Of a DNA stretch of 64,000 bases, positions 20,818-62,345 are shown piece after piece; the stretch's first letter is position 1; every line of letters starts with the position of its first letter. A program made the position numbers and the translations under genes. Source of the stretch: Bacteroidales bacterium (GTDB lineage: Bacteria > Bacteroidota > Bacteroidia > Bacteroidales > UBA3663); assembly GCA_045627865.1 (NCBI GenBank), contig JAZQOK010000004.1, positions 6,663 through 70,662 on the forward strand. Reading direction: 5' to 3'. The notes under the pieces were generated by a model that had not been told where the DNA came from, ran no database searches, and saw only the letters and a program-made list of their open reading frames with translations.

Positions 20818-20852
20818 CTCCCTCCCTTCTCAAGGGAGGGTTGGGGTGGGTC
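20818..20852 (-). repeat. GC-rich palindromic element, subtype 2, 4 nt after the lepA stop
   Basis: CTCCCTCCC-TTCTCAA-GGGAGGG-TTGGGGTGGGTC. The reverse complement begins GACCCACCCCAACCCTCCC. Confidence 0.85.
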
Positions 20853-20856
20853 TTTC

Positions 20857-22698
20857 TTAGTCGAGTTTCAAAACTGCAAGGAATGCTGTCTGAGGTACTT
20901 CGACTTTGCCAATCTGCTTCATGCGCTTCTTGCCTCGTTTCTGAGCCTCGAGCAGTTTGCGCTTACGGCTGACGTCACCACCATAACACTTGGCGGTTAC
21001 ATCCTTGCGCACCTGCTTGATGGTTTCGCGGGCAATGATCTTGGCACCGATGGCAGCCTGTACTGCTACATCAAACTGCTGACGAGGGATGAGTTCTTTC
21101 AGCTTCTCGCACATGCGACGACCGAAACGCTCTGCATTGTCAACGTGAGTCAGGGTGCTGAGTGCATCGACCTGTTCGCCGTTGAGAAGGATATCGAGCT
21201 TGATCAGCTTCGATGGACGGAAGTCGTGGATGTAGTAATCGAACGAAGCATAACCCTTCGAGATGGATTTGAGCTTGTCGTAGAAATCGATGACGATTTC
21301 GCCCAAAGGCAGGTCGAAGTAGATCTCGACGCGGTTGCCCGAGATGTACTTCTGTTCCACCAGTACGCCACGTTTGTCGAGGCAGAGCTTCATGATGCCA
21401 CCGATGAACTCTGTTTGTGTAATGATGGTGGCACGGATAAATGGCTCCTCGATATGCTCGATGGCCATGATGTCCGGCATGCCCGATGGGTTGTGGATTT
21501 CGGATTCAACGCCATGTTTGTCGAAAATCTTATAGGATACGTTCGGCACCGTAGTGATGACATCCATATTGAACTCACGACCCAGACGTTCCTGGACAAT
21601 CTCCATGTGGAGCAAACCGAGGAAGCCGCAACGGAAACCGAAACCGAGGGCCAACGAAGACTCCGGTACAAACGAGAGCGAGGCATCGTTAAGCTGCAGC
21701 TTCTCGAGCGAAGCACGCAGGTCTTCGTAATCTTCTGGGTCGATAGGATAGACACCGGCGAAGACCATAGGTTTGACCTCCTCGAATCCGGCAATCGCCT
21801 TGTCGCAAGGACGTGCCTGATGGGTAATGGTGTCACCCACCTTCACTTCGGTCGATGTCTTGATACCCGAGCAGATGTAACCTACGTCACCGCACTTGAC
21901 CTCGGCACGAGGTTCCATGTCCATACGGAGGATACCAACCTCGTCTGCATCATATTCGCTGCCGGTATTGACGAACTTGACCTTGTCGCCCTTCTTCATC
22001 GAACCATTCACGATCTTGAAGTAACCGATCACACCCTTATAGCTGTTGAATACTGAATCAAAGATCAAAGCCTGCAATGGAGCCTCCGGGTCGCCCGAAG
22101 GAGCAGGAACTCGTTCGACGATAGCCTCCAGGATCTCAGGAACACCGAGGCCAGTTTTGCCCGAAGCACGGAGAATCTCTTCGCGCTTACAGCCAAGCAG
22201 GTCGATGATTTCGTCCTCAACGAGTTCGGGCATGGCCGAATCCAAGTCGCACTTGTTGATGATTGGAATGATCTCGAGGTTATGGTCGATGGCCATGTAG
22301 AGGTTCGAGATGGTCTGTGCCTGAATGCCCTGCGTACCATCCACGATGAGCAGAGCGCCCTCGCAAGCGGCAATCGAACGTGAAACCTCGTACGAGAAAT
22401 CGACGTGGCCAGGGGTATCAATCAGGTTCAGAATATATTTGCCTGCCTCTTGTTGCTGGCCGATGTGCATGATCTGTTCCTCCTCGTTCAGTTGGCGAGG
22501 GGTGTAGTTGTAATCCATCTGGATGGCGTGGCTCTTGATGGTGATACCACGTTCGCGTTCCAGATCCATGTTGTCGAGTATCTGAGCTTGCATGTCGCGC
22601 TCGGCTACGGTCTTGGTACATTCCAGAAGGCGGTCGGCCAAAGTGGATTTACCGTGGTCAATGTGTGCGATGATGCAGAAGTTGCGGATATTCTTCAT
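20857..22698 (-). CDS. lepA: Translation elongation factor 4 (LepA)
   Basis: 613 aa. Start [25 protein letters not shown], followed by [11 protein letters not shown] and a LepA C-terminal domain. Confidence 0.95.
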
Positions 22699-32295: not shown

Positions 32296-32357
32296 ACATT
32301 AATTGTTATTAGCAAGAGAAATTAACCAAATTTGGCAATTTCTTCACTGAATTTCGT

Positions 32358-32389
32358 CCCCTCCCTTTACGGGAGGGTTAGGGTGGGTC
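32358..32389 (-). repeat. GC-rich palindromic element, subtype 2, overlapping the leuS TAG stop
   Basis: CCCCTCCC-TTTAC-GGGAGGG-TTAGGGTGGGTC. On the leuS strand it reads TAGACCCACCCTAACCCTCCC..., with the G of the TAG stop being the first base of the element. Confidence 0.85.
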
Positions 32390-41474: not shown

Positions 41475-44400
41475 TTACTTGATCATCTGACCAGCAGCGT
41501 TGAAGGTGCGGCCATTTTTAACGATGATGAATTTGCCATTGATCATGTACTTGCCGTCCTTGACTGAAGCTGCAGCGTTGATGTTAGAGAGAGCAACGAG
41601 ATCGGTGAAGGTTACGGTAGCCTTGCAAGCCTGATAGAGTGCATTGATCTTGATGTAGATGGTCTGCTCTACCTGACCCTCGTTGTCGTAAATGCCAGTG
41701 TAACCAGTGCCCTGATACTCGATCTGAGACTCGGTCTCGCCAACGATCATGTAAGCTGATGGATAACCATCGAATGCAATGGTCATCTTCTTGCCAGCAG
41801 GAACTACGATGCTGTAGTAGTTAGCCAAACCACCATTGGCAATGCCTGCGATCTCGTTTTCGCCCTCTACGAGAACCTTAGCGGTAGCCATGGTCTCGCC
41901 CTCAGCATAGTCGCGGATTGAGAGGGTGAAGGTCTTGCCGGTAGCATCTTCCTGAGCAGTCAACTTGATGTTGAGAACATCGCCCTCCTTAACTTCGATC
42001 GATGAACCATAGCTGTATGACTTCTCACCAATGGTAACACCACCCATCACGTAACCGAGGTTAGAGAGGTCGAGCTTAACGACACCATCCTTGGTAGCGG
42101 TGTAAACATAGTAAGTATAGCTGTACTGGTAGGTTACAGGATCCATAACGCCCTGAGCAGGACCCTGAACTGGCTCGTCGGCGATGATGACGATTGGGTT
42201 CTCTTCTGTGCCAACTGGAGCAGGGATGTCAACTACGCAAGCATAAGCGCAGACGATAGCAGGAGCACCCCAGTTGTTCTCGGCCTTAACACCCTTCAGG
42301 TACTTGTAGTCAGCGATGTTGACTGAGTAGATGCCAGGAGCTGCGATGCCATAACGCTGGGTGAAGTCTGCTGTCTCGAATACTGAATCTGGGTGAGCAT
42401 AGAGGGTTACAACCTGATTCTTGACATCATCCCAGAACCAAACGCGGAGAGCAAGACCGTCGGTGGCAACGCTGCCGCCTGTGCTGCCCTCGGTGATAAC
42501 AAACGAGAGCTTCTCGTAGTCAGCGATGTTTACGTGGGTAGCCTCGTTGCTGCCGTCGCCGTCGCCGAATGACTCACCCTGAACTGCGAGAGTCTTTGGA
42601 TAAGTTACTGAGTTTGCCCAGTTGGTGTTGGTGCCGGTCAACTCCTTGAGGTCGATATTGCCCTCTGGGAGTTCTGCCATCATCTGGAGGAGAAGGTAAG
42701 CGGCCTCAGCATCGGTGAGCACCTTGAGCTGCTCGGCAGAGATGAGTGCCTTAGCGTCGTCGTTGAGTGTCTGGTAAGCTGCACGAGCCTCCTCGATGCG
42801 AGCCTTGCATTCGTCGGTGAACTCAACGGTACCGATAGCGTTGATCTTGTTGACTACGATAGCAGCAAGTACCTCGTTGAAGTCACCATCGAAGGTGTGG
42901 ATCTCGAGAGCGTAGAGACGTGTGCGGTTGTTGAGGGTGAGCTTGAGGTCACCCGTGCTCATGGCGATAGCGGTACGAGTCTGCTTTGAGGTCGAAGACT
43001 CGGTGATGCCCTCCATGAGGTCGCCAGTGATGACAGCTGCGTTGTCCTTGTTGTTCGAGCTCATCAGGAGCACGAGAGTATCACCTGCATTGATCTGTGG
43101 GATAGTCATATCGACAGTACCCTGCATCTGCATGTAGTACTCACCAGTTACACCGATCAGAATCTTGTCGGCTGCAGCCTTGAACTTAAGACCAGCGGTA
43201 AGACCGAGTGGTGATTCGCCGAGGAGGAGCTCCTCATTGTCGGTAGCAAGAGCATAAGAGTAGCGACCCTTTGAACTTGCGTTCCAGTGTGCTGCATCGT
43301 CGGCAATCTCTGGGTAGTTCTTGCCGTTAGAGAAGGTCCATGTACGTGGGCCAGCCTCCTTGACGGTCCAAGATGCTGAGAATTCAGTATTGAAATCACC
43401 GTTGGCATCCTTGAACATACCAGCAGGGATATTCAGGGTGTAGGTGCCAGGGGTATGGAGCATGTGATCCTCTGAGTCGAAGGTGAAACGAGCATAAACG
43501 GTTGTTGCGCCCTCCTCGCCCTCATAACCATATACATAGGCGTTGCCACCTACAGGCTGGTTGTTGGCATCGGTCAGGGTGATGTTACCCTCGTTGAGCG
43601 CGGTGATAGCGTTAGCTGCGGTGATTGAGAAGTTGTAAGCGAGTGCCTCAACCTCTGCGTCAGGAGCAACGTCTGCACCATTGACTACAGCGGTGATATC
43701 GAATGGCTGTGGAGTGCGAGTCTCCTTGATGGTCCAAGAGGCAGTGAACTCGGTGTTGAGTGCATTGTTGGCTGCCTTGAACATGCCAGCAGGAACGTGA
43801 ATGGTGTAGGTGCCAGGAGTGTGGAGGCAGTGATCCTCCGAATCGAAGGTGAAACGAGCATAAACGGTTGTTGCACCCTCCTCGCCCTCGTATCCAAATA
43901 CATAGGCGTTGCCACCTACAGGCTGGTTGTTGGCATCGGTCAGGGTGATGTTGCCCTCGTTGAGACCAGTGATAGCGCTGGCTGCAGTGATTGAGAAGTT
44001 GTAGTTGAGTGCCTCAACCTCCGAACCTGACTCAACTTCATAACCGTTAACAACTGAGGTGATAGCGAATGGTTCTACTGTCTCGCTCTCGATGATTACC
44101 CACTTTACAACGGCTGCTGCATTAGGGGCGCCATTCTCATCAACGAAAGTACCCTCTGGGATGTTGAGTACATAGGTGCCTGGGGTGGTGAAGTAATACT
44201 GCTGGAGTGCCATGAAACGGATATAAGCAGATTCTGCACCGAATGCCAGTACGCTTGCAGCACCGAAGTCCTTGCTGCTGTCTTCGAACAGCGAAAGGGT
44301 TGGGGTAGCGGTGCCCTGTGAGAGCTGCTTGCCAGTGGCGGTGATTGTGAACTGGTAGGCAATGCCGTCGGCCGAAGCCTCGACACCCATGATTGAACCA

Positions 44401-44894
44401 GCTACGCCGTTGTTTTCAACCGATGTCAAAGTGAATGGCTCTGCAGAACCACCACCGATGTTGGCATTCAATTCGATGGTTGGGATGTAGGCTTCTGCGT
44501 CATCGACCATGAATGTGCCATAATCCTCGATGTAGAGCTTGGTTGTGCCGGCAGGAATAGCTGCAGTATAACCATCCAAAGCTATGAATCCATCCAGGGT
44601 AATCTTGTTGCCCTCGATGGTGCAGGTTGAGCCATAGGCAATACTCCACACACCATACATCGCAGAGCCATCTTTGTTACCCAAGACCAGATAGGCTGCA
44701 TCTTCTTCGCCAAGAGCGACAATAGAGGTTGCACCTGGAAGTGTGATCTGCAGGCCGTTGAGATCCTCAAGGCTTGTTACAACTTGGTCGTCCATCGAGG
44801 TGGTGACAGTTTCTCCGTCCCACGCTGTGGCTTTCGCGAAAATACTCGTAATAGCCATGATGGATACCATGAAAAGAGATAAAATTTTTTTCAT
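41475..44894 (-). CDS. Large secreted cell-surface protein with tandem ~122-aa repeats and a C-terminal beta-rich tail resembling a T9SS sorting domain
   Basis: Start placed at ATG 44894 (MKKILSLFMVSIMAITSIFA, a signal peptide), with a TATTTTTG -7 box on the minus strand at 44972-44979. Two near-identical repeats (...NEGNITLTDANNQPVGGNAYV.GYEGEEGATTVYARFTFDSEDH.LHTPGTYT...) are accompanied by a diverged third copy. The C-terminus is ...KDGKYMINGKFIIVKNGRTFNAAGQMIK. Confidence 0.7.
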   Translation of the reverse strand: MKKILSLFMVSIMAITSIFAKATAWDGETVTTSMDDQVVTSLEDLNGLQITLPGATSIVALGEEDAAYLVLGNKDGSAMYGVWSIAYGSTCTIEGNKITLDGFIALDGYTAAIPAGTTKLYIEDYGTFMVDDAEAYIPTIELNANIGGGSAEPFTLTSVENNGVAGSIMGVEASADGIAYQFTITATGKQLSQGTATPTLSLFEDSSKDFGAASVLAFGAESAYIRFMALQQYYFTTPGTYVLNIPEGTFVDENGAPNAAAVVKWVIIESETVEPFAITSVVNGYEVESGSEVEALNYNFSITAASAITGLNEGNITLTDANNQPVGGNAYVFGYEGEEGATTVYARFTFDSEDHCLHTPGTYTIHVPAGMFKAANNALNTEFTASWTIKETRTPQPFDITAVVNGADVAPDAEVEALAYNFSITAANAITALNEGNITLTDANNQPVGGNAYVYGYEGEEGATTVYARFTFDSEDHMLHTPGTYTLNIPAGMFKDANGDFNTEFSASWTVKEAGPRTWTFSNGKNYPEIADDAAHWNASSKGRYSYALATDNEELLLGESPLGLTAGLKFKAAADKILIGVTGEYYMQMQGTVDMTIPQINAGDTLVLLMSSNNKDNAAVITGDLMEGITESSTSKQTRTAIAMSTGDLKLTLNNRTRLYALEIHTFDGDFNEVLAAIVVNKINAIGTVEFTDECKARIEEARAAYQTLNDDAKALISAEQLKVLTDAEAAYLLLQMMAELPEGNIDLKELTGTNTNWANSVTYPKTLAVQGESFGDGDGSNEATHVNIADYEKLSFVITEGSTGGSVATDGLALRVWFWDDVKNQVVTLYAHPDSVFETADFTQRYGIAAPGIYSVNIADYKYLKGVKAENNWGAPAIVCAYACVVDIPAPVGTEENPIVIIADEPVQGPAQGVMDPVTYQYSYTYYVYTATKDGVVKLDLSNLGYVMGGVTIGEKSYSYGSSIEVKEGDVLNIKLTAQEDATGKTFTLSIRDYAEGETMATAKVLVEGENEIAGIANGGLANYYSIVVPAGKKMTIAFDGYPSAYMIVGETESQIEYQGTGYTGIYDNEGQVEQTIYIKINALYQACKATVTFTDLVALSNINAAASVKDGKYMINGKFIIVKNGRTFNAAGQMIK
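43390..44121. repeat. Intragenic tandem duplication, 2 x 366 bp
   Basis: GGTGCCAGG recurs at 43443 and 43809, a period of 366 bp. About 130 nt around GAAGGTGAAACGAGCATAAACGGTTGTTGC...GGTCAGGGTGATGTT is nearly identical between the copies. Confidence 0.85.
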
Positions 44895-45350
44895 TGTATC
44901 GAAAAAATTAATTAATGAATAATAGATATAGAGAATTATTATTGTTTGCGGCTTGTAATTAAAAAACGATGCAAAAATACAGAAAATATTCAAAAAGACC
45001 TAATATTTTGAAAAAAATCTTTATATTGTCGCATGTTTTTGTCTTTTATATTTGAGATTTGTCATGTTTGACTGTTCTATAATTCAAGAAAGAAAAAAGG
45101 AAAACCGTTGCCGATTTTCCTTTTCCTCGCTTGAATTAACAAACGGAGCGTTTTTCATTGTGGGTAAGATCTAAAGTAAAATACTAAAAACTAAAACTGA
45201 AAACACATTTGGGCTAAACATCATGGTTATTTTTTTAAGGTGGTGCAAAGATAGGGGGATTTTCTGAGCCCACCAAAAAAAAAGATATGCTCTACAACAC
45301 AACAACCGATTGTTCTGCTGTAGAACATATAAAAAAGATACTATTTTGAA

Positions 45351-46024: not shown

Positions 46025-47200
46025 TTATTGTTCAACTTTCGGTAGTTGACGGAAGTAAATAAGCGAATCGGTTTCGCCCAAACGGATGTGTCGCATCTCG
46101 GTGAGGATACGTTCGGGGTGGAAGGGGGCGACTTCGAAATAATCGGAACGGGCGGTGTTACAACCATAGACCTGTCCCGTCTGTGCCGCCTTGAACTGGC
46201 CATACAGCGGATTCTGGGCAAGCAGTGAGGCAAGTGTCCAGCTGGCTTCTGTGTCAAAGTATTTGAATACCCACACGTCGGCATCGCTGGCTTGTGCATA
46301 GACCGCTTCGGCTGATAATGCCAACGACCCACCATGCGTATCGTCGGCCCAAGGATACTGGAATCCAGCATCCTGATAGATCCAACTGGCCGAGCTGCGT
46401 CCGCCCGGAACATACCAGGTGGCGCCGTAGGGGAGGTCTGAGAGGATGGACCCCCCGTCCCCCTTTAGGGGGAGATCTGAGCTGTCGTTTTGGGATGCTA
46501 TGTTGTTATATTTTGTTTCGATTTCATTGAATAGCTGGTCGGCTTCGGCCGCTTTGTTGACAAGGCGGCCATAGAAGCGCATCCATTCGGCTCGGCCCAG
46601 GGGAGAGGTCTCCTGATAGTCGGCACAATAGATGATGGGAATCTGGGGTAGGATGGCGGTGATCATGGCTTGCGAGCCGGCATCGTAGGGGGTGACCCAG
46701 ATTGCCTCGCTGTTGGCCGAAAGGATAATCTCTGGGTTAGGTGCCATGCTACCTCCCGCCTCGACAATACGACCCGATTCCAATTGGGCCAGAACCTGCG
46801 GATTGAGGATATACTCGGCATCGCACAATACACCGACACAGTCGAGGGCTTGCAGCTCGGCATAGAGCGAGGCATGGCACGAGGCGGTCAACGTCTGTTG
46901 CCGGAGCGGAGTGTGCAGGGTCTGGATCCGTCCGTATTGCGCTTCGATTTCGTCCAGTTCTTCGTCGCTGAGGGTATCGCCCGGGATGAGCAGATACTGC
47001 ATGGCGATACGTTCGGGTTGCCACGGATTGAGGATGCGGCACAGGGTCATGCCATTGTCCAAGTCCTGCATCTGCAGGAGCGAGGCGTAGCGGGTCGATG
47101 CGCCGGTTTGCTGGAGTGGCTCTTCGGGGGTGCGTTGGTGGCAAGCCGAATTCACTCCGACCACGCAAAGAAGTAACAATCGATAGGCGGTTTTTCTCAT
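46025..47200 (-). CDS. ABC-transporter periplasmic binding lipoprotein (BtuF/FhuD-like, Peripla_BP_2)
   Basis: Start placed at ATG 47200 (MRKTAYRLLLLCVVGVNSAC, a lipobox). The architecture is that of an iron-chelate/B12 binding protein. It contains an in-frame palindromic-element insertion at 46448-46474. Confidence 0.65.
   Translation of the reverse strand: MRKTAYRLLLLCVVGVNSACHQRTPEEPLQQTGASTRYASLLQMQDLDNGMTLCRILNPWQPERIAMQYLLIPGDTLSDEELDEIEAQYGRIQTLHTPLRQQTLTASCHASLYAELQALDCVGVLCDAEYILNPQVLAQLESGRIVEAGGSMAPNPEIILSANSEAIWVTPYDAGSQAMITAILPQIPIIYCADYQETSPLGRAEWMRFYGRLVNKAAEADQLFNEIETKYNNIASQNDSSDLPLKGDGGSILSDLPYGATWYVPGGRSSASWIYQDAGFQYPWADDTHGGSLALSAEAVYAQASDADVWVFKYFDTEASWTLASLLAQNPLYGQFKAAQTGQVYGCNTARSDYFEVAPFHPERILTEMRHIRLGETDSLIYFRQLPKVEQ
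46448..46474 (+). repeat. GC-rich palindromic element, short form, inside a coding sequence
   Basis: GGACCCCCCGTCCCCC-TTTA-GGGGGAG. It is flanked by direct repeats GGAGGTCTGAG (46432-46442) and GGAGATCTGAG (46471-46481), spaced 39 nt apart. Confidence 0.85.
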
Positions 47201-47363
47201 TGTTGTGCGTTGTTTGGGTGCAAAGTTGCTTATTTTTTGTGAGATGACCAAACAAAACGACGTTATTTTTAATTTTATCGTCGGTTTTTAAACCTTTCGA
47301 CGATGCCTTTGTCCTACTCATATTATTATATATAATGGTTATATTTAATTTCTGCTTATTGTA

Positions 47364-50488: not shown

Positions 50489-51682
50489 ATGAAAACTTAT
50501 AACGTTGATGAAAACGGCTACTATGGCCAGTTCGGTGGAGCCTACATTCCAGAGATTCTCTACAAGACCGTCGAGGATCTGAAGAAGGCTTATTTGCCAA
50601 TTATTGAGAGCAAGGAGTTCCAGGATGAATATCGTGCCCTTTTGAAGGACTATGTGGGCCGTCCGTCGCCACTCTATTTCGCTAAGCGAATGAGCGAGAA
50701 GTATGGTTGTCAGCTCTACCTGAAACGTGAGGACTTGAACCATACCGGAGCACACAAGATCAATAATGCCATCGGACAGATTCTGATTGCCAAGAAGATG
50801 GGCAAGAAGCGTATCGTGGCTGAGACCGGTGCCGGACAGCATGGTGTGGCTACCGCTACCGTATGTGCGCTGATGGATATTCCTTGTCGTGTCTATATGG
50901 GTGCCACGGATGTGGCTCGTCAGCGTCCGAATGTGGAGCGTATGCGTATGCTGGGTGCTGAGGTTTTCCCTGTCGAGAGCGGCAACAAGACCCTCAAGGA
51001 TGCGACCAATGAGGCTATTCGCGACTGGTGCTGCCATCCAGCCGATACATTCTATATTATTGGTTCGACCGTAGGCCCACACCCTTATCCTGACATGGTG
51101 GCTCGTCTGCAGGCAATCATCAGCGAGGAGATCAAGTGGCAACTCCAGGAGAAGATCGGTCGTGACTATCCGGATTACCTGATGGCTTGTGTGGGCGGTG
51201 GTTCGAATGCTGCCGGTACCATCTACCACTACATCGACGACGAACGTGTGAAACTCGTGCTCGGTGAAGCTGGCGGTATGGGTTATGAGACAGCCGAAAC
51301 AGCCGCTTCGATCACCATCGGTACAGTAGGTATCCTGCACGGTAGCCGCATCAAACTCATGCAAACCGAGGATGGTCAGATCATCGAACCTTATTCCATC
51401 TCTGCCGGTTTGGATTATCCAGGCACAGGTCCAATCCATTGTAATCTGGCTGATCAGGGTCGCGCCAAGGTATTGCCTATCAACGACGATGAGGCGCTTC
51501 GTGCAGCCTTCGAGTTGACCCGCATGGAGGGTATCATCCCAGCACTTGAATCCAGCCATGCTTTGGCCATGTTGCCTAAGATGAAGCATCTCTTCAAGCC
51601 TGAGGATGTAGTCGTACTGACTGTCTCTGGCCGTGGCGACAAGGACCTTGAAACCTACTTGAAGCACAAAGAGACCCTCTAA
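50489..51682 (+). CDS. trpB: Tryptophan synthase beta chain
   Basis: 397 aa. GQFGGAYIPE...LNHTGAHKINNA (PLP-Lys)...GGGSNA. Confidence 0.95.
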   Translation: MKTYNVDENGYYGQFGGAYIPEILYKTVEDLKKAYLPIIESKEFQDEYRALLKDYVGRPSPLYFAKRMSEKYGCQLYLKREDLNHTGAHKINNAIGQILIAKKMGKKRIVAETGAGQHGVATATVCALMDIPCRVYMGATDVARQRPNVERMRMLGAEVFPVESGNKTLKDATNEAIRDWCCHPADTFYIIGSTVGPHPYPDMVARLQAIISEEIKWQLQEKIGRDYPDYLMACVGGGSNAAGTIYHYIDDERVKLVLGEAGGMGYETAETAASITIGTVGILHGSRIKLMQTEDGQIIEPYSISAGLDYPGTGPIHCNLADQGRAKVLPINDDEALRAAFELTRMEGIIPALESSHALAMLPKMKHLFKPEDVVVLTVSGRGDKDLETYLKHKETL

Positions 51683-51728: not shown

Positions 51729-53174
51729 ATGACAATGTTCAAATATCATACAGCATCGAAAACGATACTTGGCGATCTTTGTACTCCGGTATCTGTATAT
51801 CTGAAGGTCCGCGATGCCTATCCGCAGTCGGCTCTGATGGAGTCGAGCGATTATCATGGGGGCGAAAATGCCAAGTCCTTCATCGGCTTGCATCCGATTG
51901 CCAGCGTTTCGATCGCACATGGCGTAGGTATTGCCAAGTTCCCCGATGGAACCGAGATCTCGCACCCAATCACCAAGGAATATGGTTCGGCTCAGGTGAT
52001 CAACGACTTCCTGGCTTCGTTCGAGGTATCGGGCGAAAAGAGCAACTACTGCGGTTTGTTCGGCTATACTTCGTTCAACGCAGTACGTTATTTCGAAAAC
52101 ATCAACGTGAAGGATGAGACCCAGTCGGAGAATGATGCACCTGATCTGCTCTATATATTATATAAAGATGTAGTGGTGTTCGACCATTTCCGCAACGAAA
52201 TGATCCTGATCGAGCTCTTGAGCGAGGGCGAGGAGGATGACCTGGATCAGTTGGAACGTGACTGCCAGAGCCGTGCTTATCAGACCTACGATTTCCATCC
52301 GGTGGGTGACTATTGGTCAACTTTGACCGACGACGAACATCGTGCCAACATCCGCAAGGGAATCCAGCATTGTCTGCGTGGTGATGTGTTCCAGATTGTT
52401 CTGTCGCGACGTTTCAAGCAGAAGTACGAGGGCGATGACTTCAAACTCTACCGTGCGTTGCGTAGCATCAACCCAAGTCCATATCTGTTCTACTTTGATT
52501 TCGGCGGCTTCCGTATCTTCGGCTCAAGTCCTGAGACCCATTGCCGTATAGAAAAGACCCCCCTGCCCCCTTTAGGGGGAGAAGGAACCTCCCAGACAAG
52601 ATATACCGCCTACATCGATCCGATTGCGGGTACAACCAAACGTACTGGTAATGCGGAGCAGGACCGACAGAATGCCCTCTATCTGAAGAATGATCCGAAG
52701 GAGAATGCCGAGCATGTGATGCTGGTGGATCTGGCTCGTAATGACCTGAGCCGTAACTGCCATGGTGTGCATGTGGACTTCTACAAGGATATGCAGTTCT
52801 ACAGTCATGTGATTCACTTGGTGAGTCGTGTGAGTGGCGAGTTGGACGAAGGTGCTGATCCAATCAAGGCCTTCATCGATACTTTCCCTGCAGGAACCCT
52901 GAGTGGCGCTCCTAAGGTTCGAGCCATGCAGCTCATTAGCGAATATGAACCACACAACCGTGGCGCTTATGGCGGCTGTATCGGATTCATCGGCTTCGAC
53001 AAGAGCCTCAATCAGGCCATCACGATCCGCACTTTCGTGTCTCGCAACAACGAACTCTGGTTCCAGGCGGGTGGCGGTATCGTTGCCAAGAGCGATGTAG
53101 AATATGAACTTCAGGAGGTGAACAATAAGTTGGGTGCCCTCCGTAAGGCAATCTTAATGGCAGAGAAGCTATAG
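51729..53174 (+). CDS. trpE: Anthranilate synthase component I
   Basis: 481 aa. LVDLARNDLSR, GTLSGAPKVRAMQLI and GGGIVAKSD are present. It contains an in-frame palindromic-element insertion at 52556-52581. Confidence 0.95.
   Translation: MTMFKYHTASKTILGDLCTPVSVYLKVRDAYPQSALMESSDYHGGENAKSFIGLHPIASVSIAHGVGIAKFPDGTEISHPITKEYGSAQVINDFLASFEVSGEKSNYCGLFGYTSFNAVRYFENINVKDETQSENDAPDLLYILYKDVVVFDHFRNEMILIELLSEGEEDDLDQLERDCQSRAYQTYDFHPVGDYWSTLTDDEHRANIRKGIQHCLRGDVFQIVLSRRFKQKYEGDDFKLYRALRSINPSPYLFYFDFGGFRIFGSSPETHCRIEKTPLPPLGGEGTSQTRYTAYIDPIAGTTKRTGNAEQDRQNALYLKNDPKENAEHVMLVDLARNDLSRNCHGVHVDFYKDMQFYSHVIHLVSRVSGELDEGADPIKAFIDTFPAGTLSGAPKVRAMQLISEYEPHNRGAYGGCIGFIGFDKSLNQAITIRTFVSRNNELWFQAGGGIVAKSDVEYELQEVNNKLGALRKAILMAEKL
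52556..52581 (+). repeat. GC-rich palindromic element, short form, inside the trpE coding sequence
   Basis: GACCCCCCTGCCCCC-TTTA-GGGGGAG is translated as (K)TPLPPLGGE. It is almost identical to the copy at 46448-46474. Confidence 0.85.
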
Positions 53175-53223
53175 ACCCTCTCCGCCCCACAAGGGGGCAC
53201 CTCCCCCTTAATGGGGAGGGGAG
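53174..53223 (+). repeat. GC-rich palindromic element, subtype 1, overlapping the trpE TAG stop
   Basis: (TA)GACCCTCTCCGCCCCACAAGGGGGCACCTCCCCC-TTAA-TGGGGAGGGGAG. It is about 90% identical to 9988-10032. Confidence 0.9.
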
Positions 53224-53273
53224 TATGGTTGATGCTGGCAAGAGGGAAATATAGTTGAATTATAAATAAAAAT

Positions 53274-53930
53274 TTGATGAATAATAACGACAATAAAATA
53301 CAAACTATTTCTCCCTCCCCATTAAGGGGGAGGGCTGGGGAGAGGGTCTCAGTCGTCATCATCGACAACTACGATTCGTTTACCTACAACCTCTCGCACC
53401 TGGTCAAGGAGCTTGGTGCCGAAGTGACTGTGTATCGTAACGATCAGTTCCAGATGGAGCAGTTGGAAGCTTTCGACAAGATCATCCTTTCTCCAGGCCC
53501 AGGCATTCCATGTGAGGCAGGATTGTTGCTCGACGTGATTAAGGCATACGCCGGCAAGAAACCAATTCTGGGCGTTTGTCTCGGACATCAGGCCATCGGC
53601 GAGAGCTTCGGCGGCACGTTGACCAACATCGGACAGGTCATGCATGGTGTGGCAACTCCATGTCACATCACTAAAGATGACTATCTCTTCGAGGGTTTGT
53701 CTAAGGATCTTGAGATTGGCCGTTACCACTCGTGGGTAGTTGATCAGCAGAACTTCCCGGATTGCCTGGAGGTAACCTCCGTGTCGGACGAGGGTTACAT
53801 CATGTCGCTCCGTCACAAGGAATACGACATCCGTGGCATCCAGTATCATCCTGAGTCTGTATTGACTCCTGATGGCAAGGCTATATTGAAGAATTGGCTA
53901 TATGGACCCTCCCCCGAACCCCTCCCATAA
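53274..53930 (+). CDS. trpG: Anthranilate synthase component II (glutamine amidotransferase)
   Basis: 218 aa. The core is VVIIDNYDSFTYNL...GVCLGHQAIG...IQYHPES. The first ~25 and last 8 codons are encoded by palindromic-element sequence. Confidence 0.9.
   Translation: MMNNNDNKIQTISPSPLRGRAGERVSVVIIDNYDSFTYNLSHLVKELGAEVTVYRNDQFQMEQLEAFDKIILSPGPGIPCEAGLLLDVIKAYAGKKPILGVCLGHQAIGESFGGTLTNIGQVMHGVATPCHITKDDYLFEGLSKDLEIGRYHSWVVDQQNFPDCLEVTSVSDEGYIMSLRHKEYDIRGIQYHPESVLTPDGKAILKNWLYGPSPEPLP
53311..53348 (-). repeat. GC-rich palindromic element, subtype 1, reverse orientation, inside the trpG 5' coding region
   Basis: CTCCCTCCCC-ATTAA-GGGGGAGGG-CTGGGGAGAGGGTC. It is the inverted partner of 53174-53223. 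Confidence 0.9.
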
Positions 53931-53950
53931 TGGAGGGGAGAGGTTTGAAA
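53905..53950 (+). repeat. GC-rich palindromic element, subtype 2, containing the trpG stop codon
   Basis: GACCCTCCCCCGAACCCCTCCC-ATAATG-GAGGGGAGAGGTTTGAAA. The TAA stop (53928-53930) lies in the hairpin loop. The GAGAGGTTTGAAA tail is shared with 56278-56321. Confidence 0.9.
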
Positions 53951-54022: not shown

Positions 54023-54094
54023 GTTACCAATCCCCCGATAGCAATAGGTAACTGCTCCCTCCCCCTAAAGGGGGTCGGGGGTCCGGGGTGGGTC
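54023..54094 (-). repeat. GC-rich palindromic element, long subtype, ending 3 nt before ATG 54098
   Basis: GTTACCAATCCCCCGATAGCAATAGGTAAC-TGCTCCCTCCCCC-TAAA-GGGGG-TCGGGGGTCCGGGGTGGGTC. It is about 90% identical to 56388-56461. Confidence 0.95.
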
Positions 54095-54097
54095 TTT

Positions 54098-54292
54098 ATG
54101 AAACAATTTTTCTGCAATTTGCTAGCTACAGTAGTTTGCTTTTCTGTTGGCTTTGTGATCATTCACTATTTGTTCGTTTGGTTCGGTTGGAGTCAGTCAG
54201 AACCACTCCTCAATACTTTGGCTTATGGTGCAGGAATGGGTGTGTTATACCAGATTACCATTAGTCTATATTATTTAATCAAGAAAAAATGA
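54098..54292 (+). CDS. Small two-TM membrane protein of unknown function embedded in the trp operon
   Basis: 64 aa: MKQFFCNLLATVVCFSVGFVIIHYLFVWFGWSQSEPLLNTLAYGAGMGVLYQITISLYYLIKKK. Its stop overlaps the trpD start (ATGA at 54289-54292). Confidence 0.5.
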   Translation: MKQFFCNLLATVVCFSVGFVIIHYLFVWFGWSQSEPLLNTLAYGAGMGVLYQITISLYYLIKKK

Positions 54293-55284
54293 AACAATAC
54301 CTTTTGAAACTCATCGCTGGTGAAACCCTCTCACAGGAGGAGACCCACCAGATCATGCTCAACATCGTTCAGGAGCAATACAACGTACAACAGATTGCAG
54401 CTTTGCTGATGGCTCTGCAAACCCGTGGAGCAACCGTCGATGAATTGCTTGGCTTCCGTCAGGGTCTTCTCGAAACGGGTAAATATATTAATGTAGAGGA
54501 TTATAATACACTCGATATTGTCGGTACCGGTGGCGATGGTAAGAATACCTTCAACATCTCGACCTGTTCGGCTTTCGTCATAGCTGGTGCTGGCTACAAA
54601 GTCTCGAAGCATGGCAACGGAGGAGCCACTTCTGTATCGGGTGCATCGAATGTACTGGAGGGTCATGGCGTGAAGTTCACCGACGACGAAAGCAAGTTGC
54701 GTCGTTCGTTGGAGGAGGCTGGTATCTGCTATTTCCATGCTCCTTTGTTCGCCTATGGCATGAAGTTCGTGGGCCCTACCCGTAAGGCTTTGGCTGTGCC
54801 TACTTGCTTCAATCTGCTGGGCCCATTGGTAAACCCTTGTCATCCGAAGAATTCGTTGCACGGTACTGCCAATCAGAGCCAGTTGCGTCTCTATACCAAT
54901 ATTCACCAGAAGATCGGCGATAACTATGGTGTAGTTACCTCTTACGATGGCTACGACGAAATCTCCCTCACCTCGGGCTTCAAGATCTGCACCAATAATT
55001 TCGAAAAGGTGCTCACTCCTGTCGATCTGGGCTTGAAGTATGTCAAGCAGGAGGAGATCTTTGGTGGCAATACTGCAGCCGATGCCATGAAGATCTTCGA
55101 TGCTGTGCTGGATGGTTCAGCTACCGAGGCTCAGAAGAACGTGGTGATTGCTAATGCTGCCTGCGGTATCAGCGTGATGAACATGAACCTCTCGATGGAG
55201 GATTCGGTTGCTGCTGCCCGCGAATCGTTGGAGAGTGGCAAGGCTCTTCAGGTATTCAAGAAGTTCGTTGAGATTAACAGTTAA
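54289..55284 (+). CDS. trpD: Anthranilate phosphoribosyltransferase
   Basis: 331 aa. DIVGTGGDGKNTFNIST...KHGNGGATS. Confidence 0.95.
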   Translation: MKQYLLKLIAGETLSQEETHQIMLNIVQEQYNVQQIAALLMALQTRGATVDELLGFRQGLLETGKYINVEDYNTLDIVGTGGDGKNTFNISTCSAFVIAGAGYKVSKHGNGGATSVSGASNVLEGHGVKFTDDESKLRRSLEEAGICYFHAPLFAYGMKFVGPTRKALAVPTCFNLLGPLVNPCHPKNSLHGTANQSQLRLYTNIHQKIGDNYGVVTSYDGYDEISLTSGFKICTNNFEKVLTPVDLGLKYVKQEEIFGGNTAADAMKIFDAVLDGSATEAQKNVVIANAACGISVMNMNLSMEDSVAAARESLESGKALQVFKKFVEINS

Positions 55285-55295
55285 AAGCCCCACAC

Positions 55296-55324
55296 GACCC
55301 CCTCCCAGCCTCCCCGTGGGGAGG
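55296..55324 (+). repeat. GC-rich palindromic element, subtype 3, 11 nt after the trpD stop
   Basis: GACCCCCTCCCAGCCTCCCC-GT-GGGGAGG. It is identical to the reverse complement of 57144-57172. Confidence 0.9.
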
Positions 55325-55384
55325 AGTGGGTAGATAGAATGGGTGTTCGGTTATTTATATAATAGTTAAACGATAAATCACTTA

Positions 55385-55436
55385 CCCTCCAGTGGTGTCA
55401 AAAAACTCCTCCCCTCGGGGAGGTCGGGAGGGGGTC
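55385..55436 (-). repeat. GC-rich palindromic element, subtype 3, ending 2 nt before the trpC ATG
   Basis: CCCTCCAGTGGTGTCAAAAAACTCCTCCCC-TC-GGGGAGGTCGGGAGGGGGTC. It is about 85% identical to 57121-57172. Confidence 0.9.
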
Positions 55437-55438
55437 CT

Positions 55439-56278
55439 ATGAAAGATATTCTCGAAGAAATAGTAGCCAACAAACGTGAGGAGCTGGCTGTAGCGATCAG
55501 CGATCTGCCGTTGGAGACGTTGAAGAAGTTCACCGAGCAGAAGATCGCTCGCGATGGCGCTCTGAAACTCCGTTCCATGCGACAGAGTCTGGCTCAGTCG
55601 CAGAGCGGTATAATCGCCGAGTTCAAACGCAAGAGCCCAAGCAAGGGCTGGATTCATGCCGATGTTGAACCCGAAGATGTAGTGCCTAAGTATGCCGAAG
55701 GTGGTGCTTCGGCCAGCAGCATCCTGACCGACGAGAAATACTTCGGCGGTAAACTGGAGTTCATTCAGCGAGTACGAGATCTGGCTCCAAATCTGCCTCT
55801 GCTTCGCAAGGAATTTATCATCGACGAATATCAGCTCTACGAGGCTCGTCTGGTTGGTGCTGATGCTGTGCTGCTTATTGCGGCCGATCTGCATCCTGCT
55901 CAATATGGAGAACTCTTGCAAGTGGCACATAGTTTGGGCTTGGAGGTTCTGCTCGAGGTGCATGACTCTGCCGAACTGGAGTATCTGAAGGCTGGTGTGC
56001 CAGACATGTTGGGTGTCAACAACCGTTCGTTGGGTACTTTCCATACCGATGTGCAGCACAGTTTCGATATTGCGATCGAGATGCAACGTGCGGTCAAGGA
56101 GTTGTGTTTGTCGGACGAAGAGGCTCCGCTGTTGGTCAGCGAATCGGGTATCGGCAATCCTTCGGTTGTCAAACTGTTGCGTGAGAAGGGCTTCCGTGGC
56201 TTCCTGATCGGAGAGTGCTTCATGAAGGAGGCTGATCCAGGTCTTGCTCTGAAAGAGTTTATCCAGCAGACCTTATAG
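55439..56278 (+). CDS. trpC: Indole-3-glycerol-phosphate synthase
   Basis: 279 aa. IIAEFKRKSPSKG...LRKEFIIDEYQLYEAR...LLEVH. Confidence 0.95.
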   Translation: MKDILEEIVANKREELAVAISDLPLETLKKFTEQKIARDGALKLRSMRQSLAQSQSGIIAEFKRKSPSKGWIHADVEPEDVVPKYAEGGASASSILTDEKYFGGKLEFIQRVRDLAPNLPLLRKEFIIDEYQLYEARLVGADAVLLIAADLHPAQYGELLQVAHSLGLEVLLEVHDSAELEYLKAGVPDMLGVNNRSLGTFHTDVQHSFDIAIEMQRAVKELCLSDEEAPLLVSESGIGNPSVVKLLREKGFRGFLIGECFMKEADPGLALKEFIQQTL

Positions 56279-56321
56279 ACCCACCCCTAACCCTCCCTCG
56301 TTGGGAGGGAGAGGTTTGAAA
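56278..56321 (+). repeat. GC-rich palindromic element, subtype 2, overlapping the trpC TAG stop
   Basis: (TA)GACCCACCCCTAACCCTCCC-TCGTT-GGGAGGGAGAGGTTTGAAA. Confidence 0.9.
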
Positions 56322-56350
56322 TAATGGGTCAAAATTATTCTCTATACCTT

Positions 56351-56366
56351 GTGGGTGGAGAGGGTC
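56351..56366 (-). repeat. Truncated subtype-1 terminus in reverse orientation
   Basis: GTGGGTGGAGAGGGTC followed by TA. The reverse complement, TAGACCCTCTCCACCCAC, matches the start of the 53174 copy. Confidence 0.7.
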
Positions 56367-56387
56367 TATTTTAGTAAATAATAACTT

Positions 56388-56461
56388 GTTACCAATCCCT
56401 CGATAGCAATAGGTAACTGCTCCCTCCCCCTAAAGGGGGGCGGGGGGTCCGGGGGTGAGTC
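56388..56461 (-). repeat. GC-rich palindromic element, long subtype, ending 2 nt before the trpF ATG
   Basis: GTTACCAATCCCTCGATAGCAATAGGTAAC-TGCTCCCTCCCCC-TAAA-GGGGGG-CGGGGGGTCCGGGGGTGAGTC. Confidence 0.95.
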
Positions 56462-56463
56462 TT

Positions 56464-57105
56464 ATGATTGTAAAAGTTTGCGGCATGACAAGTGCCGATA
56501 ATATAAAAGCTGTGGAGGCTGTATTGGCCGATACACAAGCAACTGAGAAGTGGATGGGTTTCATCTTCTGGGAGCCATCGAAACGTAATTGTGCCACCAA
56601 GCCCGATTATCTGCCCGTGGATTGCAAACGCGTAGGCGTGTTTGTGAATGCAGAGGTCGAGGAGGTTGTGAAACGTGCGGTGGAGTTCGGTTTGACCCAC
56701 ATCCAGTTGCATGGCGACGAGAACCGCCAGTACATCATGGCTTTGCGTCAGGCTCTGGCTGCTGCCAACAACAAATGCGTCATCATCAAGGCGTTGAGTC
56801 TGAAGGTAGCCAACGATGTTGAAAAGTGCGAACCCTACGTCGGCTTTGTCGATTACTTCCTGTTCGATACGCCAACCACAGGCCGTGGCGGTAGCGGTAA
56901 CAGCTTCGACTGGAAACTGCTGGAGGGTTACCGCATGATGACTCCTTTCATTCTGAGCGGTGGCATCGGATTGGATAGTGTCGAATCTCTCAAACAGTTC
57001 AGTCATCCCTGTTGGGAGGGCATCGACCTCAACTCTAAGTTTGAGTCGGCTCCAGGCATCAAGGATGCAAAGAAACTTCGTGAATTTATAGTAAATATCA
57101 ATTAA
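56464..57105 (+). CDS. trpF: Phosphoribosylanthranilate isomerase
   Basis: Start placed at ATG 56464 (MIVKVCGMTS...) rather than the GTG at 56455, which lies inside the repeat. Also ...HIQLHGDE.... Confidence 0.9.
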   Translation: MIVKVCGMTSADNIKAVEAVLADTQATEKWMGFIFWEPSKRNCATKPDYLPVDCKRVGVFVNAEVEEVVKRAVEFGLTHIQLHGDENRQYIMALRQALAAANNKCVIIKALSLKVANDVEKCEPYVGFVDYFLFDTPTTGRGGSGNSFDWKLLEGYRMMTPFILSGGIGLDSVESLKQFSHPCWEGIDLNSKFESAPGIKDAKKLREFIVNIN

Positions 57106-57120: not shown

Positions 57121-57172
57121 CCCTCCAGTGGTGTCATTAAACACCTCCCCACGGGGAGGCTGGGAGGGGGTC
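57121..57172 (-). repeat. GC-rich palindromic element, subtype 3, ending 3 nt before the trpA ATG
   Basis: CCCTCCAGTGGTGTCATTAAACACCTCCCC-AC-GGGGAGGCTGGGAGGGGGTC. Confidence 0.9.
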
Positions 57173-57175
57173 TTT

Positions 57176-57952
57176 ATGAATAGAATCAATCAACTTTTTG
57201 CCAATAAACCACAGAATCTTTTGAGTCTGTATTTCTGTGCCGGAGCTCCTACGCTCGATGGTACAGCCGATGTGATCCGTACGCTCGAGAAGAACGGAAT
57301 CTCGATGATCGAGGTGGGTGTGCCATTCTCAGATCCTATGGCCGATGGTCCTGTGATCCAGGAGGCAGCTACCAAGGCTTTGCGCAACGGTATGTCGTTG
57401 CGTCTGCTGTTCGACCAACTGAAGGATATTCGTCAGGATGTCACCATTCCTCTGATCCTGATGGGTTATCTGAACCCAGTCATGCAGTATGGCTTCGATA
57501 ACTTCTGCAAGAAGTGTAATGAAGTGGGCATCGATGGCGTGATCATTCCAGATCTGCCATTCAAGGACTATATGGAGGAGTATAAGCCTATTGCCGACAA
57601 GTACGATATTCGTATTATCATGCTCATTACTCCAGAGACCAGCGAAGAAAGAATCCGCTTCATCGACCAGAATACCGATGGTTTCATCTACATGGTCTCT
57701 TCTGCCGCCATTACGGGTGCGCAGAAGGAGTTCAACGATGCCAAGCAGGCCTACTTCAACAAGGTACATGCCATGAACCTCCAGCATCCAACCATGATCG
57801 GTTTCGGTATCTCCAACAAACAGACCCTTGAGTCGGCTCAGGCTAATGCCAATGGTGCCATCATCGGTTCGAAGTTCGTGCAGTTGCTGGATGCTGCCAA
57901 TGGCGATGCACAAGTCGCTATCGACCAGCTTTATGATGCATTAAAGCAATAA
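57176..57952 (+). CDS. trpA: Tryptophan synthase alpha chain
   Basis: Start placed at ATG 57176 (MNRINQLFANK...) rather than the GTG at 57128, which lies inside the repeat. Also EVGVPFSDPMADGPVIQ. Confidence 0.95.
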   Translation: MNRINQLFANKPQNLLSLYFCAGAPTLDGTADVIRTLEKNGISMIEVGVPFSDPMADGPVIQEAATKALRNGMSLRLLFDQLKDIRQDVTIPLILMGYLNPVMQYGFDNFCKKCNEVGIDGVIIPDLPFKDYMEEYKPIADKYDIRIIMLITPETSEERIRFIDQNTDGFIYMVSSAAITGAQKEFNDAKQAYFNKVHAMNLQHPTMIGFGISNKQTLESAQANANGAIIGSKFVQLLDAANGDAQVAIDQLYDALKQ

Positions 57953-62288: not shown

Positions 62289-62316
62289 TTCTTAATACCA
62301 TCCTCCCCTATGAATT

Positions 62317-62340
62317 CCCCCTAAAGGGGGTTAGGGGGTC
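62317..62340 (-). repeat. GC-rich palindromic element, short form, ending 5 nt before the symporter ATG
   Basis: CCCCC-TAAA-GGGGG-TTAGGGGGTC. The reverse complement is GACCCCCTAACCCCCTTTAGGGGG. Confidence 0.85.
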
Positions 62341-62345
62341 TTACT

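What the first reader, a model, noticed from the sequence alone, without database searches (positions are those of the whole stretch)
52550..52590. In-frame insertion of a palindromic element inside trpE (anthranilate synthase I)
The short-form element GACCCCCCTGCCCCCTTTAGGGGGAG lies within the trpE reading frame. It is translated as ...CRIE-KTPLPPLGGE-GTSQTRYTAYIDPIAGT.... This is just upstream of the conserved PIAGT motif, in what I remember as a short variable loop in TrpE proteins.

Imperfect direct repeats AGAAAAGACC (52550-59) and AGAAGGAACC (52580-89) lie exactly 30 nt (10 codons) apart. That spacing is consistent with a 30-nt insertion.

In-frame invasion of essential genes by palindromic repeats is known for Rickettsia palindromic elements (RPEs). 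I am not aware of it being described for Bacteroidota.
Basis: partly seen in the sequence, partly recalled or inferred. Interest (0 to 1): 0.65.

Follow-up and report, generated by a model that had tools for sequence, protein, structure and literature searches.

The report
Mobile palindromic repeat translated inside trpE
A 26-base hairpin repeat that litters this gut Prevotella-like genome has landed in frame inside the tryptophan-pathway gene trpE. It adds about nine flexible residues to a loop that varies freely among related species, and the same repeat sits inside many other housekeeping genes of related uncultured bacteria.

Summary
GACCCCCCTGCCCCCTTTAGGGGGAG lies at 52556-52581 inside an intact 481-aa trpE (51729-53174, +), within a trpB-E-G-D-C-F-A operon. 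It reads ...RIEK-TPLPPLGGE-GTSQTRYTAYIDPIAGT.

The 26-mer is one arm of a REP/REPIN-like repeat family. Near-identical arms lie at 46449, 54059, 56424 and 62316. Inverted arm pairs of about 150-180 nt fill the trp intergenic spacers.

Fifty-three of 80 orthologues from other species have only a two-residue turn at this site (RIEGNKAYID). Long loops arose at least about 12 times. A ~95%-identical relative is 27 nt shorter here.

Conspecific contigs from at least five runs in three studies, and one metatranscriptome contig, carry the insert without gaps. AlphaFold2 places it as a low-confidence coil between two strands.

About a third of the arms lie in frame inside real genes, including ValRS, IleRS, HtpG, DapF and a binding protein in this window.

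This is a new family of a known kind: intragenic REPs and Rickettsia RPEs. How it moves is unknown.

The parts
51729..53174 (+). trpE (anthranilate synthase component I), intact, 481 aa
   Evidence: ORF. Pfam Chorismate_bind and Anth_synt_I_N. It is 82-91% identical to 120 orthologues.
52556..52581 (+). Inserted repeat arm: 26-nt core GACCCCC-CTG-CCCCC-TTTA-GGGGG-AG, translated as (K)TPLPPLGGE. The inserted span is probably 27 nt.
   Evidence: 27-nt gap in the ~95% relative; family core is 26 nt.
46449..46474 (+). Same-subfamily arm (24/26 identical). It lies in frame, read antisense as LPLKGDGGS, inside the binding-protein gene 46025-47251 (-).
   Evidence: Peripla_BP_2 spans residues 173-376, arm at about residue 271; orthologues such as P0127 lack it.
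54059..54083 (-). Same-subfamily arm, the right arm of the repeat unit that fills the trpG-orf64 spacer. It ends about 14 nt before the ATG at 54098.
   Evidence: (D8, D12).
56424..56449 (-). Same-subfamily arm (24/26 identical) just upstream of the trpF start.
   Evidence: (I7, I12).
62316..62340 (-). Same-subfamily arm just upstream of the symporter gene start at 62346.
   Evidence: (I13, D12).
53173..53349 (.). Inverted arm pair (~177 nt) filling the trpE-trpG spacer. Its left arm begins inside the trpE stop codon (TAGACCC). Its interior supplies the only available trpG start (ATG 53277). Its right arm is translated as SPSPLRGRAGERV.
   Evidence: D3, D17; GATase domain starts at residue 27.
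53905..53945 (+). Arm overlapping the trpG 3' end. It gives TrpG the C-terminal tail GPSPEPLP in place of the usual ...NWLKH stop.
   Evidence: (D20).
55291..55441 (.). Inverted arm pair between trpD and trpC: 37-nt arms, 86% complementary, 77 nt apart. This is the REPIN/MITE-like full unit.
   Evidence: I1; 55291-55438 folds at -81 kcal/mol, z = -7.2, 0/200 shuffles as stable.
56278..56460 (.). Inverted arm pair between trpC and trpF.
   Evidence: (D8, D20).
57141..57173 (-). Arm of a sister subfamily directly upstream of the trpA ATG (57176).
   Evidence: (I2, D6).

Best explanation
A single arm of a short, GC-rich, GACC-headed hairpin repeat became inserted into the codons for the tip of a beta-hairpin in trpE, immediately before the PIAGT strand. 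The family is REP-like as singlets and REPIN/MITE-like as inverted pairs.

The inserted length is a multiple of three, most likely 27 nt, and the reading frame used is one of the four stop-free frames of the arm. The gene therefore stays open, and the arm is translated as about nine Pro/Gly-rich residues (TPLPPLGGE) that extend a permissive loop.

The insert is best read as a tolerated passenger rather than an adaptation of the enzyme. The site recurs as a hot spot because selection lets length changes through there.

Shown:
- family membership
- absence from most orthologues
- an intact gene
- fixation in several strains
- presence in one contig assembled from an RNA library
- a predicted loop position

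Inferred:
- the way the arm moved (transposition by an unidentified enzyme, or recombination or template switching from a nearby copy)
- that it has little effect on the enzyme
For: Family membership:
- The insert is 24/26 identical to arms at 46449 and 56424, with 0/100 shuffles giving any match.
- Related arms lie after trpE in other species, for example L019 at 24/26.
- Flanks are not conserved beyond the 26-nt core, so it behaves as an independent unit.

Derived state:
- Fifty-three of 80 species have RIE-GN-KAYID-type two-residue turns.
- An NJ tree with Fitch parsimony puts the short loop at the root and needs at least 12 changes to long loops.
- A ~95%-identical contig in run X2 is 27 nt shorter exactly here.

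Real, not an artefact:
- Gap-free contigs carrying the insert come from X3, X4, X7, X17 and X29, in three studies.
- A metatranscriptome contig from X25 also carries it without gaps.

Gene functional:
- The ORF is full length, shares all invariant residues with orthologues, and sits in a complete trp operon.

Loop position:
- AlphaFold2 gives strands 271-277 and 291-304 with coil 278-290, and pLDDT below 50 at 285-287.
- Mycobacterial TrpE structures 7BVD and 5CWA have only K-DGR-A here.

Generality:
- Fifty-three of 138 arms lie in long ORFs, using only the four open frames.
- Nineteen of 20 such ORFs tested have Pfam domains, and 16-17 have domain evidence around the arm.
- Two examples checked against close orthologues, the window's binding protein and DapF, have relatives without the arm.
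Against: - No empty-site allele within the species was found, so the exact boundaries and original sequence are unknown. The closest relatives (78-95% nt identity) each carry a different loop.
- No transposase, target duplication or other mark of transposition was seen.
- The solo hairpin is no more stable than shuffles of the same composition (z = -0.7).
- The RNA evidence is a single low-depth contig that could derive from DNA carry-over.
- Neutrality is inferred only from the variability of the loop. No enzyme or proteomic data exist.
- In DapF the arm-bearing loop is only 3 residues longer than the commonest form, so some 'insertions' may be replacements.
Confidence: 0.88

Rival explanations
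1. The palindrome arose locally at this site by slippage, duplication or fold-back template switching on pre-existing G-rich codons. It was not imported as a copy of a mobile repeat.
For: The same loop has expanded by other local mechanisms elsewhere: GGTTCA repeats in L201, tandem CTCAAC- and CACTCAC-type repeats in L033 and L067, and a duplicated segment in L039/L040. In Xylanibacter ruminicola D31d (L060) the right stem of the 33-nt insert coincides with AGGGGA, which is already present in its sister strain L076.
Against: The insert is 24/26 identical over the full length to copies 6 kb and 4 kb away. It matches an exact pattern found in at least 120 unrelated metagenome contigs. The match includes the non-palindromic GACCCCCC head, which fold-back synthesis would not create.
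Confidence: 0.06
2. The segment is an ancestral or convergently evolved loop, and its likeness to the repeat is coincidental.
For: The loop is Pro/Gly rich in several lineages, so composition alone could create some similarity.
Against: Most orthologues lack any such segment. Nucleotide identity to the repeat is 24/26, with no match in 100 shuffles. The short loop is ancestral on the tree.
Confidence: 0.02
3. The insert is kept because it does something. It could act as an mRNA hairpin that pauses translation or protects or processes the polycistronic trp message. Alternatively, the peptide loop could alter TrpE regulation or its contact with TrpG.
For: The insert is retained without gaps in at least five runs. 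The trp operon is unusually dense in these elements: 7 of the 11 C-run/G-run hairpins in the 64-kb window lie within 52.5-56.5 kb, and arms abut almost every start and stop there.
Against: The loop varies from 2 to more than 40 residues among species, with unrelated sequences. One conspecific strain (X10) has a further net +36 nt immediately after the arm. The insert region has low model confidence. The same arm is found in dozens of unrelated proteins.
Confidence: 0.1
4. The insert is an assembly artefact or chimera at a repeat.
For: Short GC-rich repeats can misjoin contigs.
Against: Independent assemblies from five DNA runs and one RNA run span both junctions without gaps. The frame stays open and both flanks are trpE.
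Confidence: 0.01

Closest known systems
Intragenic REP elements (GTAG- and CGTC-tagged palindromic repeats; Di Nocera et al. 2013, PMC3733652) and REP doublets (REPINs)
   Same: Both are 20-40-nt tagged stem-loops. Both occur as singlets and as inverted dimers that fold into long hairpins. Both lie mostly just after coding regions. A subset lies in frame inside known genes, adding roughly 10-30 residues.
   Different: The head here is (A)GACC, not GTAG or CGTC. The stems are pure C and G runs. No RAYT gene was seen or could be searched for. The intragenic share, about a third of exact-match copies, appears high. The hosts are gut and rumen Prevotellaceae, for which I found no report.
Rickettsia palindromic elements (RPE; Ogata et al. 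2000 and 2002, as cited in PMC10969869)
   Same: Both are palindromic selfish repeats inserted in frame into unrelated housekeeping genes. Both are translated and sit where the fold tolerates them.
   Different: RPEs are about 100-150 bp and encode 30-50 residues; here the unit is 26-27 nt and about 9 residues, or about 20-30 for pairs. The sequences are unrelated. RPE hosts are obligate intracellular alphaproteobacteria with reduced genomes, whereas these hosts are free-living gut anaerobes.
Bacterial MITEs with open frames found intragenically (ERIC/RU-1-3, BOX, Correia; Delihas 2007, PMC2759123; review PMC10969869)
   Same: The inverted arm pairs (150-180 nt, 32-40-nt terminal inverted repeats, AT-rich interior) look like MITEs. 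They can create N- and C-terminal extensions or fusions.
   Different: No target-site duplication is detectable and no parent IS is known. The trpE copy is a solo arm far below MITE size.

Membership tests
REP / REPIN (repetitive extragenic palindromes) | Short (20-40 nt) imperfect palindrome present in many dispersed copies | tested here: met
   The core is 26 nt. There are 5 same-subfamily and about 16 wider-family copies in 64 kb, and at least 120 metagenome contigs carry the exact pattern.
REP / REPIN (repetitive extragenic palindromes) | Conserved terminal tetranucleotide tag GTAG or CGTC | tested here: not met
   The fixed head is GACC(CCC), preceded by A or G. Neither GTAG nor CGTC is present.
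REP / REPIN (repetitive extragenic palindromes) | Frequent inverted dimers able to fold into a larger hairpin | tested here: met
   Arms 55291-55327 and 55405-55441 are 86% complementary. The unit folds at -81 kcal/mol, z = -7.2. Similar pairs lie at 53173-53349 and 56278-56460.
REP / REPIN (repetitive extragenic palindromes) | Association with a RAYT (IS200/IS605-like tyrosine transposase) flanked by the repeats | not tested
   Only 21 ORFs of the window went through Pfam and none is a transposase. A whole-genome search is needed.
MITE | Terminal inverted repeats on a 50-500-nt non-coding unit | tested here: met
   This is met for the arm pairs. The trpE copy itself is only one arm.
MITE | Target-site duplication flanking each copy | tested here: not met
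Rickettsia palindromic elements (RPE) | 100-150-bp palindromic element of one of the described RPE families | tested here: not met
   The length is 26-27 nt. Rfam gave no match at gathering thresholds. The host is a Bacteroidales bacterium.
Rickettsia palindromic elements (RPE) | In-frame insertion into unrelated protein-coding genes that remain open | tested here: met
   Examples are trpE, the binding protein, and ValRS, IleRS, HtpG, DapF, ThiF-family, GH20, GH123, GH130 and others.
Anthranilate synthase component I (TrpE) | Chorismate-binding and N-terminal domains above Pfam thresholds, conserved PIAGT and GAPK motifs, trp operon context | tested here: met
   245 and 88 bits; neighbours are trpB, G, D, C, F, A; invariant columns shared; E = 7e-63 to 7BVD TrpE.

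The most novel reading that the evidence does not exclude
This 26-nt GACC-headed hairpin is a 'coding REP' family that has colonised hundreds of protein-coding genes across uncultured gut and rumen Prevotellaceae, at a frequency comparable to RPEs in Rickettsia.

About a third of its copies are translated in four tolerated frames. They lie in loops of aminoacyl-tRNA synthetases, HtpG, DapF, TrpE and glycoside hydrolases. The elements also rewrite gene starts and stops and fuse neighbouring genes.

If so, it is a general and ongoing source of loop-length and gene-boundary variation in free-living gut bacteria, a role not previously described for this phylum.
Probability: 0.55. Interest if true: 0.7.

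Novelty: new member of a known kind. Interest (0 to 1): 0.5.

Why it matters
In-frame colonisation of essential genes by palindromic repeats is usually presented as a curiosity of Rickettsia and a few other genomes. Here the same thing appears in abundant gut and rumen Prevotellaceae, with a very small unit (about 9 residues).

- **Annotation.** MAG annotation is affected: gene starts, stops and fusions created by the repeats, and odd Pro/Gly 'low-complexity' loops.
- **Strain typing.** The trpE loop is polymorphic even within the species.
- **Protein evolution.** The element marks naturally permissive insertion sites in well-studied enzymes.
- **Repeat biology.** This is a REP-like family without the canonical GTAG or CGTC tags and without a known mobilising enzyme.

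For trpE itself the insertion is most likely harmless.

Tried and rejected
- **Rfam.** At gathering thresholds over the whole window it gave nothing.
- **Exact-protein look-up of this TrpE.** No record was found, so the source assembly could not be identified.
- **Target-site duplication.** Rejected after profiling 131 unique copies and seeing a 27-nt, not 30-nt, gap in the nearest relative.
- **Closest orthologue DNA (L201, L202, L203).** I hoped for a clean empty site. Each has a different loop, so the boundaries stay uncertain.
- **X10 allele.** I tried to read the 60 extra letters by laying the run on truncated references. The tool does not print overhangs beyond the reference ends.
- **PDB alignments for DapF and HtpG.** They were too distant to define indels. 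Close homologues were used for DapF instead, and they showed a net +3 residues rather than +9.
- **Viral contigs.** Only 2 matches, so there is no sign of phage carriage.
- **Literature.** Searches for Prevotella or Bacteroidota intragenic repeats found nothing specific.

Full report
**1. What is at the site**

The window encodes a complete tryptophan operon: trpB 50489-51682, trpE 51729-53174, trpG 53277-53930, a 64-codon ORF at 54098-54292, trpD 54289-55284, trpC 55439-56278, trpF 56464-57105 and trpA 57176-57952. Each enzyme gene has the expected Pfam domain.

The string GACCCCCCTGCCCCCTTTAGGGGGAG lies at 52556-52581. It is in frame and reads ...SSPETHCRIEK-TPLPPLGGE-GTSQTRYTAYIDPIAGT.

With up to 3 mismatches the 26-mer occurs three times in the window and never in 100 dinucleotide-preserving shuffles.

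**2. The element belongs to a repeat family**

- Same-subfamily arms lie at 46449-46474 (+), 54059-54083 (-), 56424-56449 (-) and 62316-62340 (-).
- A wider family shares the plan (A)GACCC + C-run + spacer + C-stem / 4-nt loop / G-stem + AG. It occupies gene boundaries at 9986-10035, 20815-20853, 32355-32390, 53172-53225, 53311-53349, 53905-53945, 55291-55327, 55405-55441, 56276-56320 and 57141-57173.
- Orientation is regular. After a gene the C-rich strand follows the stop, often sharing it (TAGACCC). Before a gene the G-rich strand ends GGGTC 2-6 nt from the ATG.
- In the trp spacers two arms face each other across an AT-rich core. Arms 55291-55327 and 55405-55441 are 86% complementary over 37 nt.
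- That unit folds at -81 kcal/mol, z = -7.2.
- A solo arm is not more stable than shuffles of its own composition (z = -0.7).
- Rfam has no match.

The trpE copy is thus a solo arm of a REP/REPIN-like, or MITE-like, family.

**3. It is an insertion**

I aligned 120 protein homologues and fetched trpE loci from 80 species-level genomes, all Bacteroidales and mostly Prevotellaceae MAGs, with the best at 89% identity.

- Between HCRI and AYIDPIAGT, 53 of 80 have only a two-residue turn, for example RIEGNKAYID. Thirteen have 4-6 extra residues. Fourteen, plus the window, have 8-23 extra residues of unrelated sequence.
- On an NJ tree built without the loop, parsimony puts the short form at the root and needs at least 12 changes to long loops.
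- Several long loops are themselves hairpin-forming. Examples are L001 (the closest relative, with a degenerate version of the same arm), L039/L040, L009, and L060, the cultured Xylanibacter ruminicola D31d.
- D31d differs from its sister MAG L076 (EGNK) by +33 nt.
- Mycobacterial TrpE structures have K-DGR-A at this position.
- AlphaFold2 on a 34-sequence alignment (mean pLDDT 78) gives strands 271-277 and 291-304. The insert forms coil 278-290, with pLDDT below 50 at 285-287.

**4. Size and boundaries**

Contigs of public runs laid on the region show a ~95%-identical relative (X2) that is 27 nt shorter across 52556-52606. From the listed substitutions and gaps, its loop reconstructs to RITKAQNNATYVAY.

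Removing 27 nt from the window gives RIEKGTSQTRYTAY, which has the same length.

Across 131 unique copies from metagenomes, conservation stops at the 26-nt core. The flanks are merely A-rich, and position -1 is never C.

They are part of the element, not a target duplication. I could not find an empty-site allele within the species, and the nearest orthologues each carry a different loop. The exact junctions therefore remain uncertain.

**5. It is real, fixed in several strains and still changing**

- Gap-free contigs spanning both junctions occur in X3, X4, X7, X17 and X29, from three studies.
- A 155-nt contig from a metatranscriptomic library (X25) also spans them without gaps. Its depth is low, and DNA carry-over cannot be excluded.
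- In run X10 the sequence is identical through 52582, and then 60 nt replace 24 nt. That is a net in-frame gain of 36 nt next to the arm. I could not read its sequence.

**6. The gene looks functional**

The ORF is full length. It shares every invariant column with 33 orthologues, scores far above the Pfam thresholds and sits in an intact operon. The pseudogene refutation does not apply.

**7. The same family enters other genes**

Within the window:
- The arm at 46449 is read antisense as LPLKGDGGS inside a periplasmic binding-protein gene. Peripla_BP_2 spans residues 173-376 and the arm is at about residue 271. Orthologues such as P0127 lack these residues.
- TrpG has lost the usual MKIVIIDNYDSFT start. 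It can only begin at an ATG inside the repeat unit, giving a 26-residue extension that includes SPSPLRGRAGERV.
- The TrpG C-terminus runs into another arm, ending ...NWLYGPSPEPLP where orthologues end ...NWLKH.

In metagenomes:
- Of 138 arms, 53 lie in stop-free frames with at least 40 codons on each side.
- The arm has stops in two of its six frames. The other four are all used: TPQPPLGGE 19 times, LPLKGxGGS 23, DPPxPFRGS 5 and PPKGGxGV 6.
- Nineteen of 20 such ORFs tested have Pfam domains. In 16-17 the domain evidence surrounds the arm. These include ValRS, IleRS, the LeuRS anticodon domain, DapF, CCA-adding enzyme, HtpG, a ThiF-family protein, GH20, GH123, GH130, an ABC transporter, a RecD-like helicase and NanM.
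- In two cases (L192 MurA+RimM; L188 GT2+DUF4922+SpoIID) arms join neighbouring genes into one open frame.
- For DapF, close homologues include many without the arm (FLPRGEELPRGNF). The arm-bearing loop is only 3 residues longer, so replacement as well as pure insertion occurs.
- Only two viral contigs carry the pattern.

**8. Mechanism**

The best-supported account is a solo REP-like arm that landed in a purine-rich stretch coding a hairpin tip. It survived because its length and frame kept the gene open and because this loop tolerates almost anything.

How arms move is not shown. No transposase, tag or duplication was found. Recombination or template switching from the many nearby copies is a live alternative, and the trp operon alone holds about eleven arms.

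A function for the mRNA hairpin or the peptide cannot be excluded. It is disfavoured by the extreme variability of the loop between and within species.

**9. Comparison with what is known**

In-frame palindromic repeats are documented in several groups:
- Rickettsia RPEs.
- GTAG- and CGTC-tagged REPs in several phyla, notably Opitutus terrae and R. conorii. Many of these lie in replication and repair genes, and dimers encode 20-30 residues (PMC3733652).
- Enterobacterial and other MITEs (PMC2759123, PMC10969869).

The present family shares the architecture and behaviour of REPs but fails the tag criterion. It has no known RAYT. It is unrelated to RPEs in size and sequence. I found no description of such elements in Prevotella or Bacteroidota genes in the held library.

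**10. Verdict**

For trpE this is an ordinary, probably neutral, event of a known kind.

What raises interest is the family-level picture: a very small coding repeat that is widespread inside housekeeping genes of uncultured gut and rumen Prevotellaceae. That picture rests here on one capped metagenome scan and needs a whole-genome census.

Noticed in passing
window 46449-46474, inside gene 46025-47251 (-): There is a second in-frame intragenic copy of the same arm in this window. It is read antisense as LPLKGDGGS in the inter-lobe linker of a periplasmic binding protein (Peripla_BP_2). Orthologues at 75% identity lack it, and others carry different repeat-like inserts there.
   Followed up: yes
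window 53277-53930 (trpG) with arms at 53311-53349 and 53905-53945: TrpG has a 26-residue N-terminal extension and a 7-8-residue C-terminal tail, both encoded by repeat arms. The usual start (MKIVIIDNYDSFT) is gone, and the only in-frame start lies inside the repeat unit. Similar repeat-encoded TrpG ends occur in L004, L025, L026 and L036.
   Followed up: partly
window 54055-54097, 55405-55438, 56420-56463, 57141-57175, 62316-62345: The G-rich strand of the arms lies immediately upstream of start codons. It often carries three or four G-tracts (for example GGGGGTCGGGGGTCCGGGGTGGG), a possible G-quadruplex or structured 5' leader. Any effect on translation in an organism without classical Shine-Dalgarno use is unknown.
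   Followed up: no
window 54098-54292: A 64-codon hydrophobic ORF lies between trpG and trpD, bounded by a repeat arm. It has no Pfam hit and no tblastn match in the 80 related trp loci. It may be a by-product of the repeat unit rather than a gene.
   Followed up: partly
window 18060-18305: A tandem array of about five to six 41-nt units (GTTGCTCCCGAAGTTTTCGGAACGAGCAAAACTCGCGTCGC), each with an internal hairpin and no spacers. It is not a CRISPR layout and has no Rfam match.
   Followed up: no
window 43350-43649 and 43716-44015, inside ORF 41475-44993 (-): A 300-nt direct repeat at 85% identity lies within a 1172-aa ORF that has no Pfam match. This looks like an internal domain duplication in an uncharacterised large protein.
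   Followed up: no
L192:7749-9653 (-) and L188:3805-7833 (-): Repeat arm pairs between neighbouring genes contain no stop in the shared frame. As a result MurA and RimM (L192), and GT2, DUF4922 and SpoIID proteins (L188), read as single ORFs. These are possible repeat-mediated gene fusions or annotation traps.
   Followed up: partly
window 52583-52606, in run X10: A conspecific strain is identical through the arm and then has 60 nt in place of 24 nt, a net +36 nt in frame. The trpE loop is therefore polymorphic within the species. The sequence of the extra segment could not be retrieved.
   Followed up: partly
L039/L040:3820-3888, L033:3817-3852, L067:3832-3873, L201 trpE loop: The same TrpE hairpin tip has also grown by tandem duplication or slippage of unrelated short motifs in other species. 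The site is a general length-variation hot spot, not only a repeat target.
   Followed up: partly
window 32355-32391 and 20815-20859: Arms lie directly after the stop codons of leuS (32389-35256, -) and lepA (20857-22698, -). The leuS stop TAG is part of the element's TAGACCC head. This suggests either insertion preference at gene ends or recruitment of the arm as a stop or terminator.
   Followed up: no
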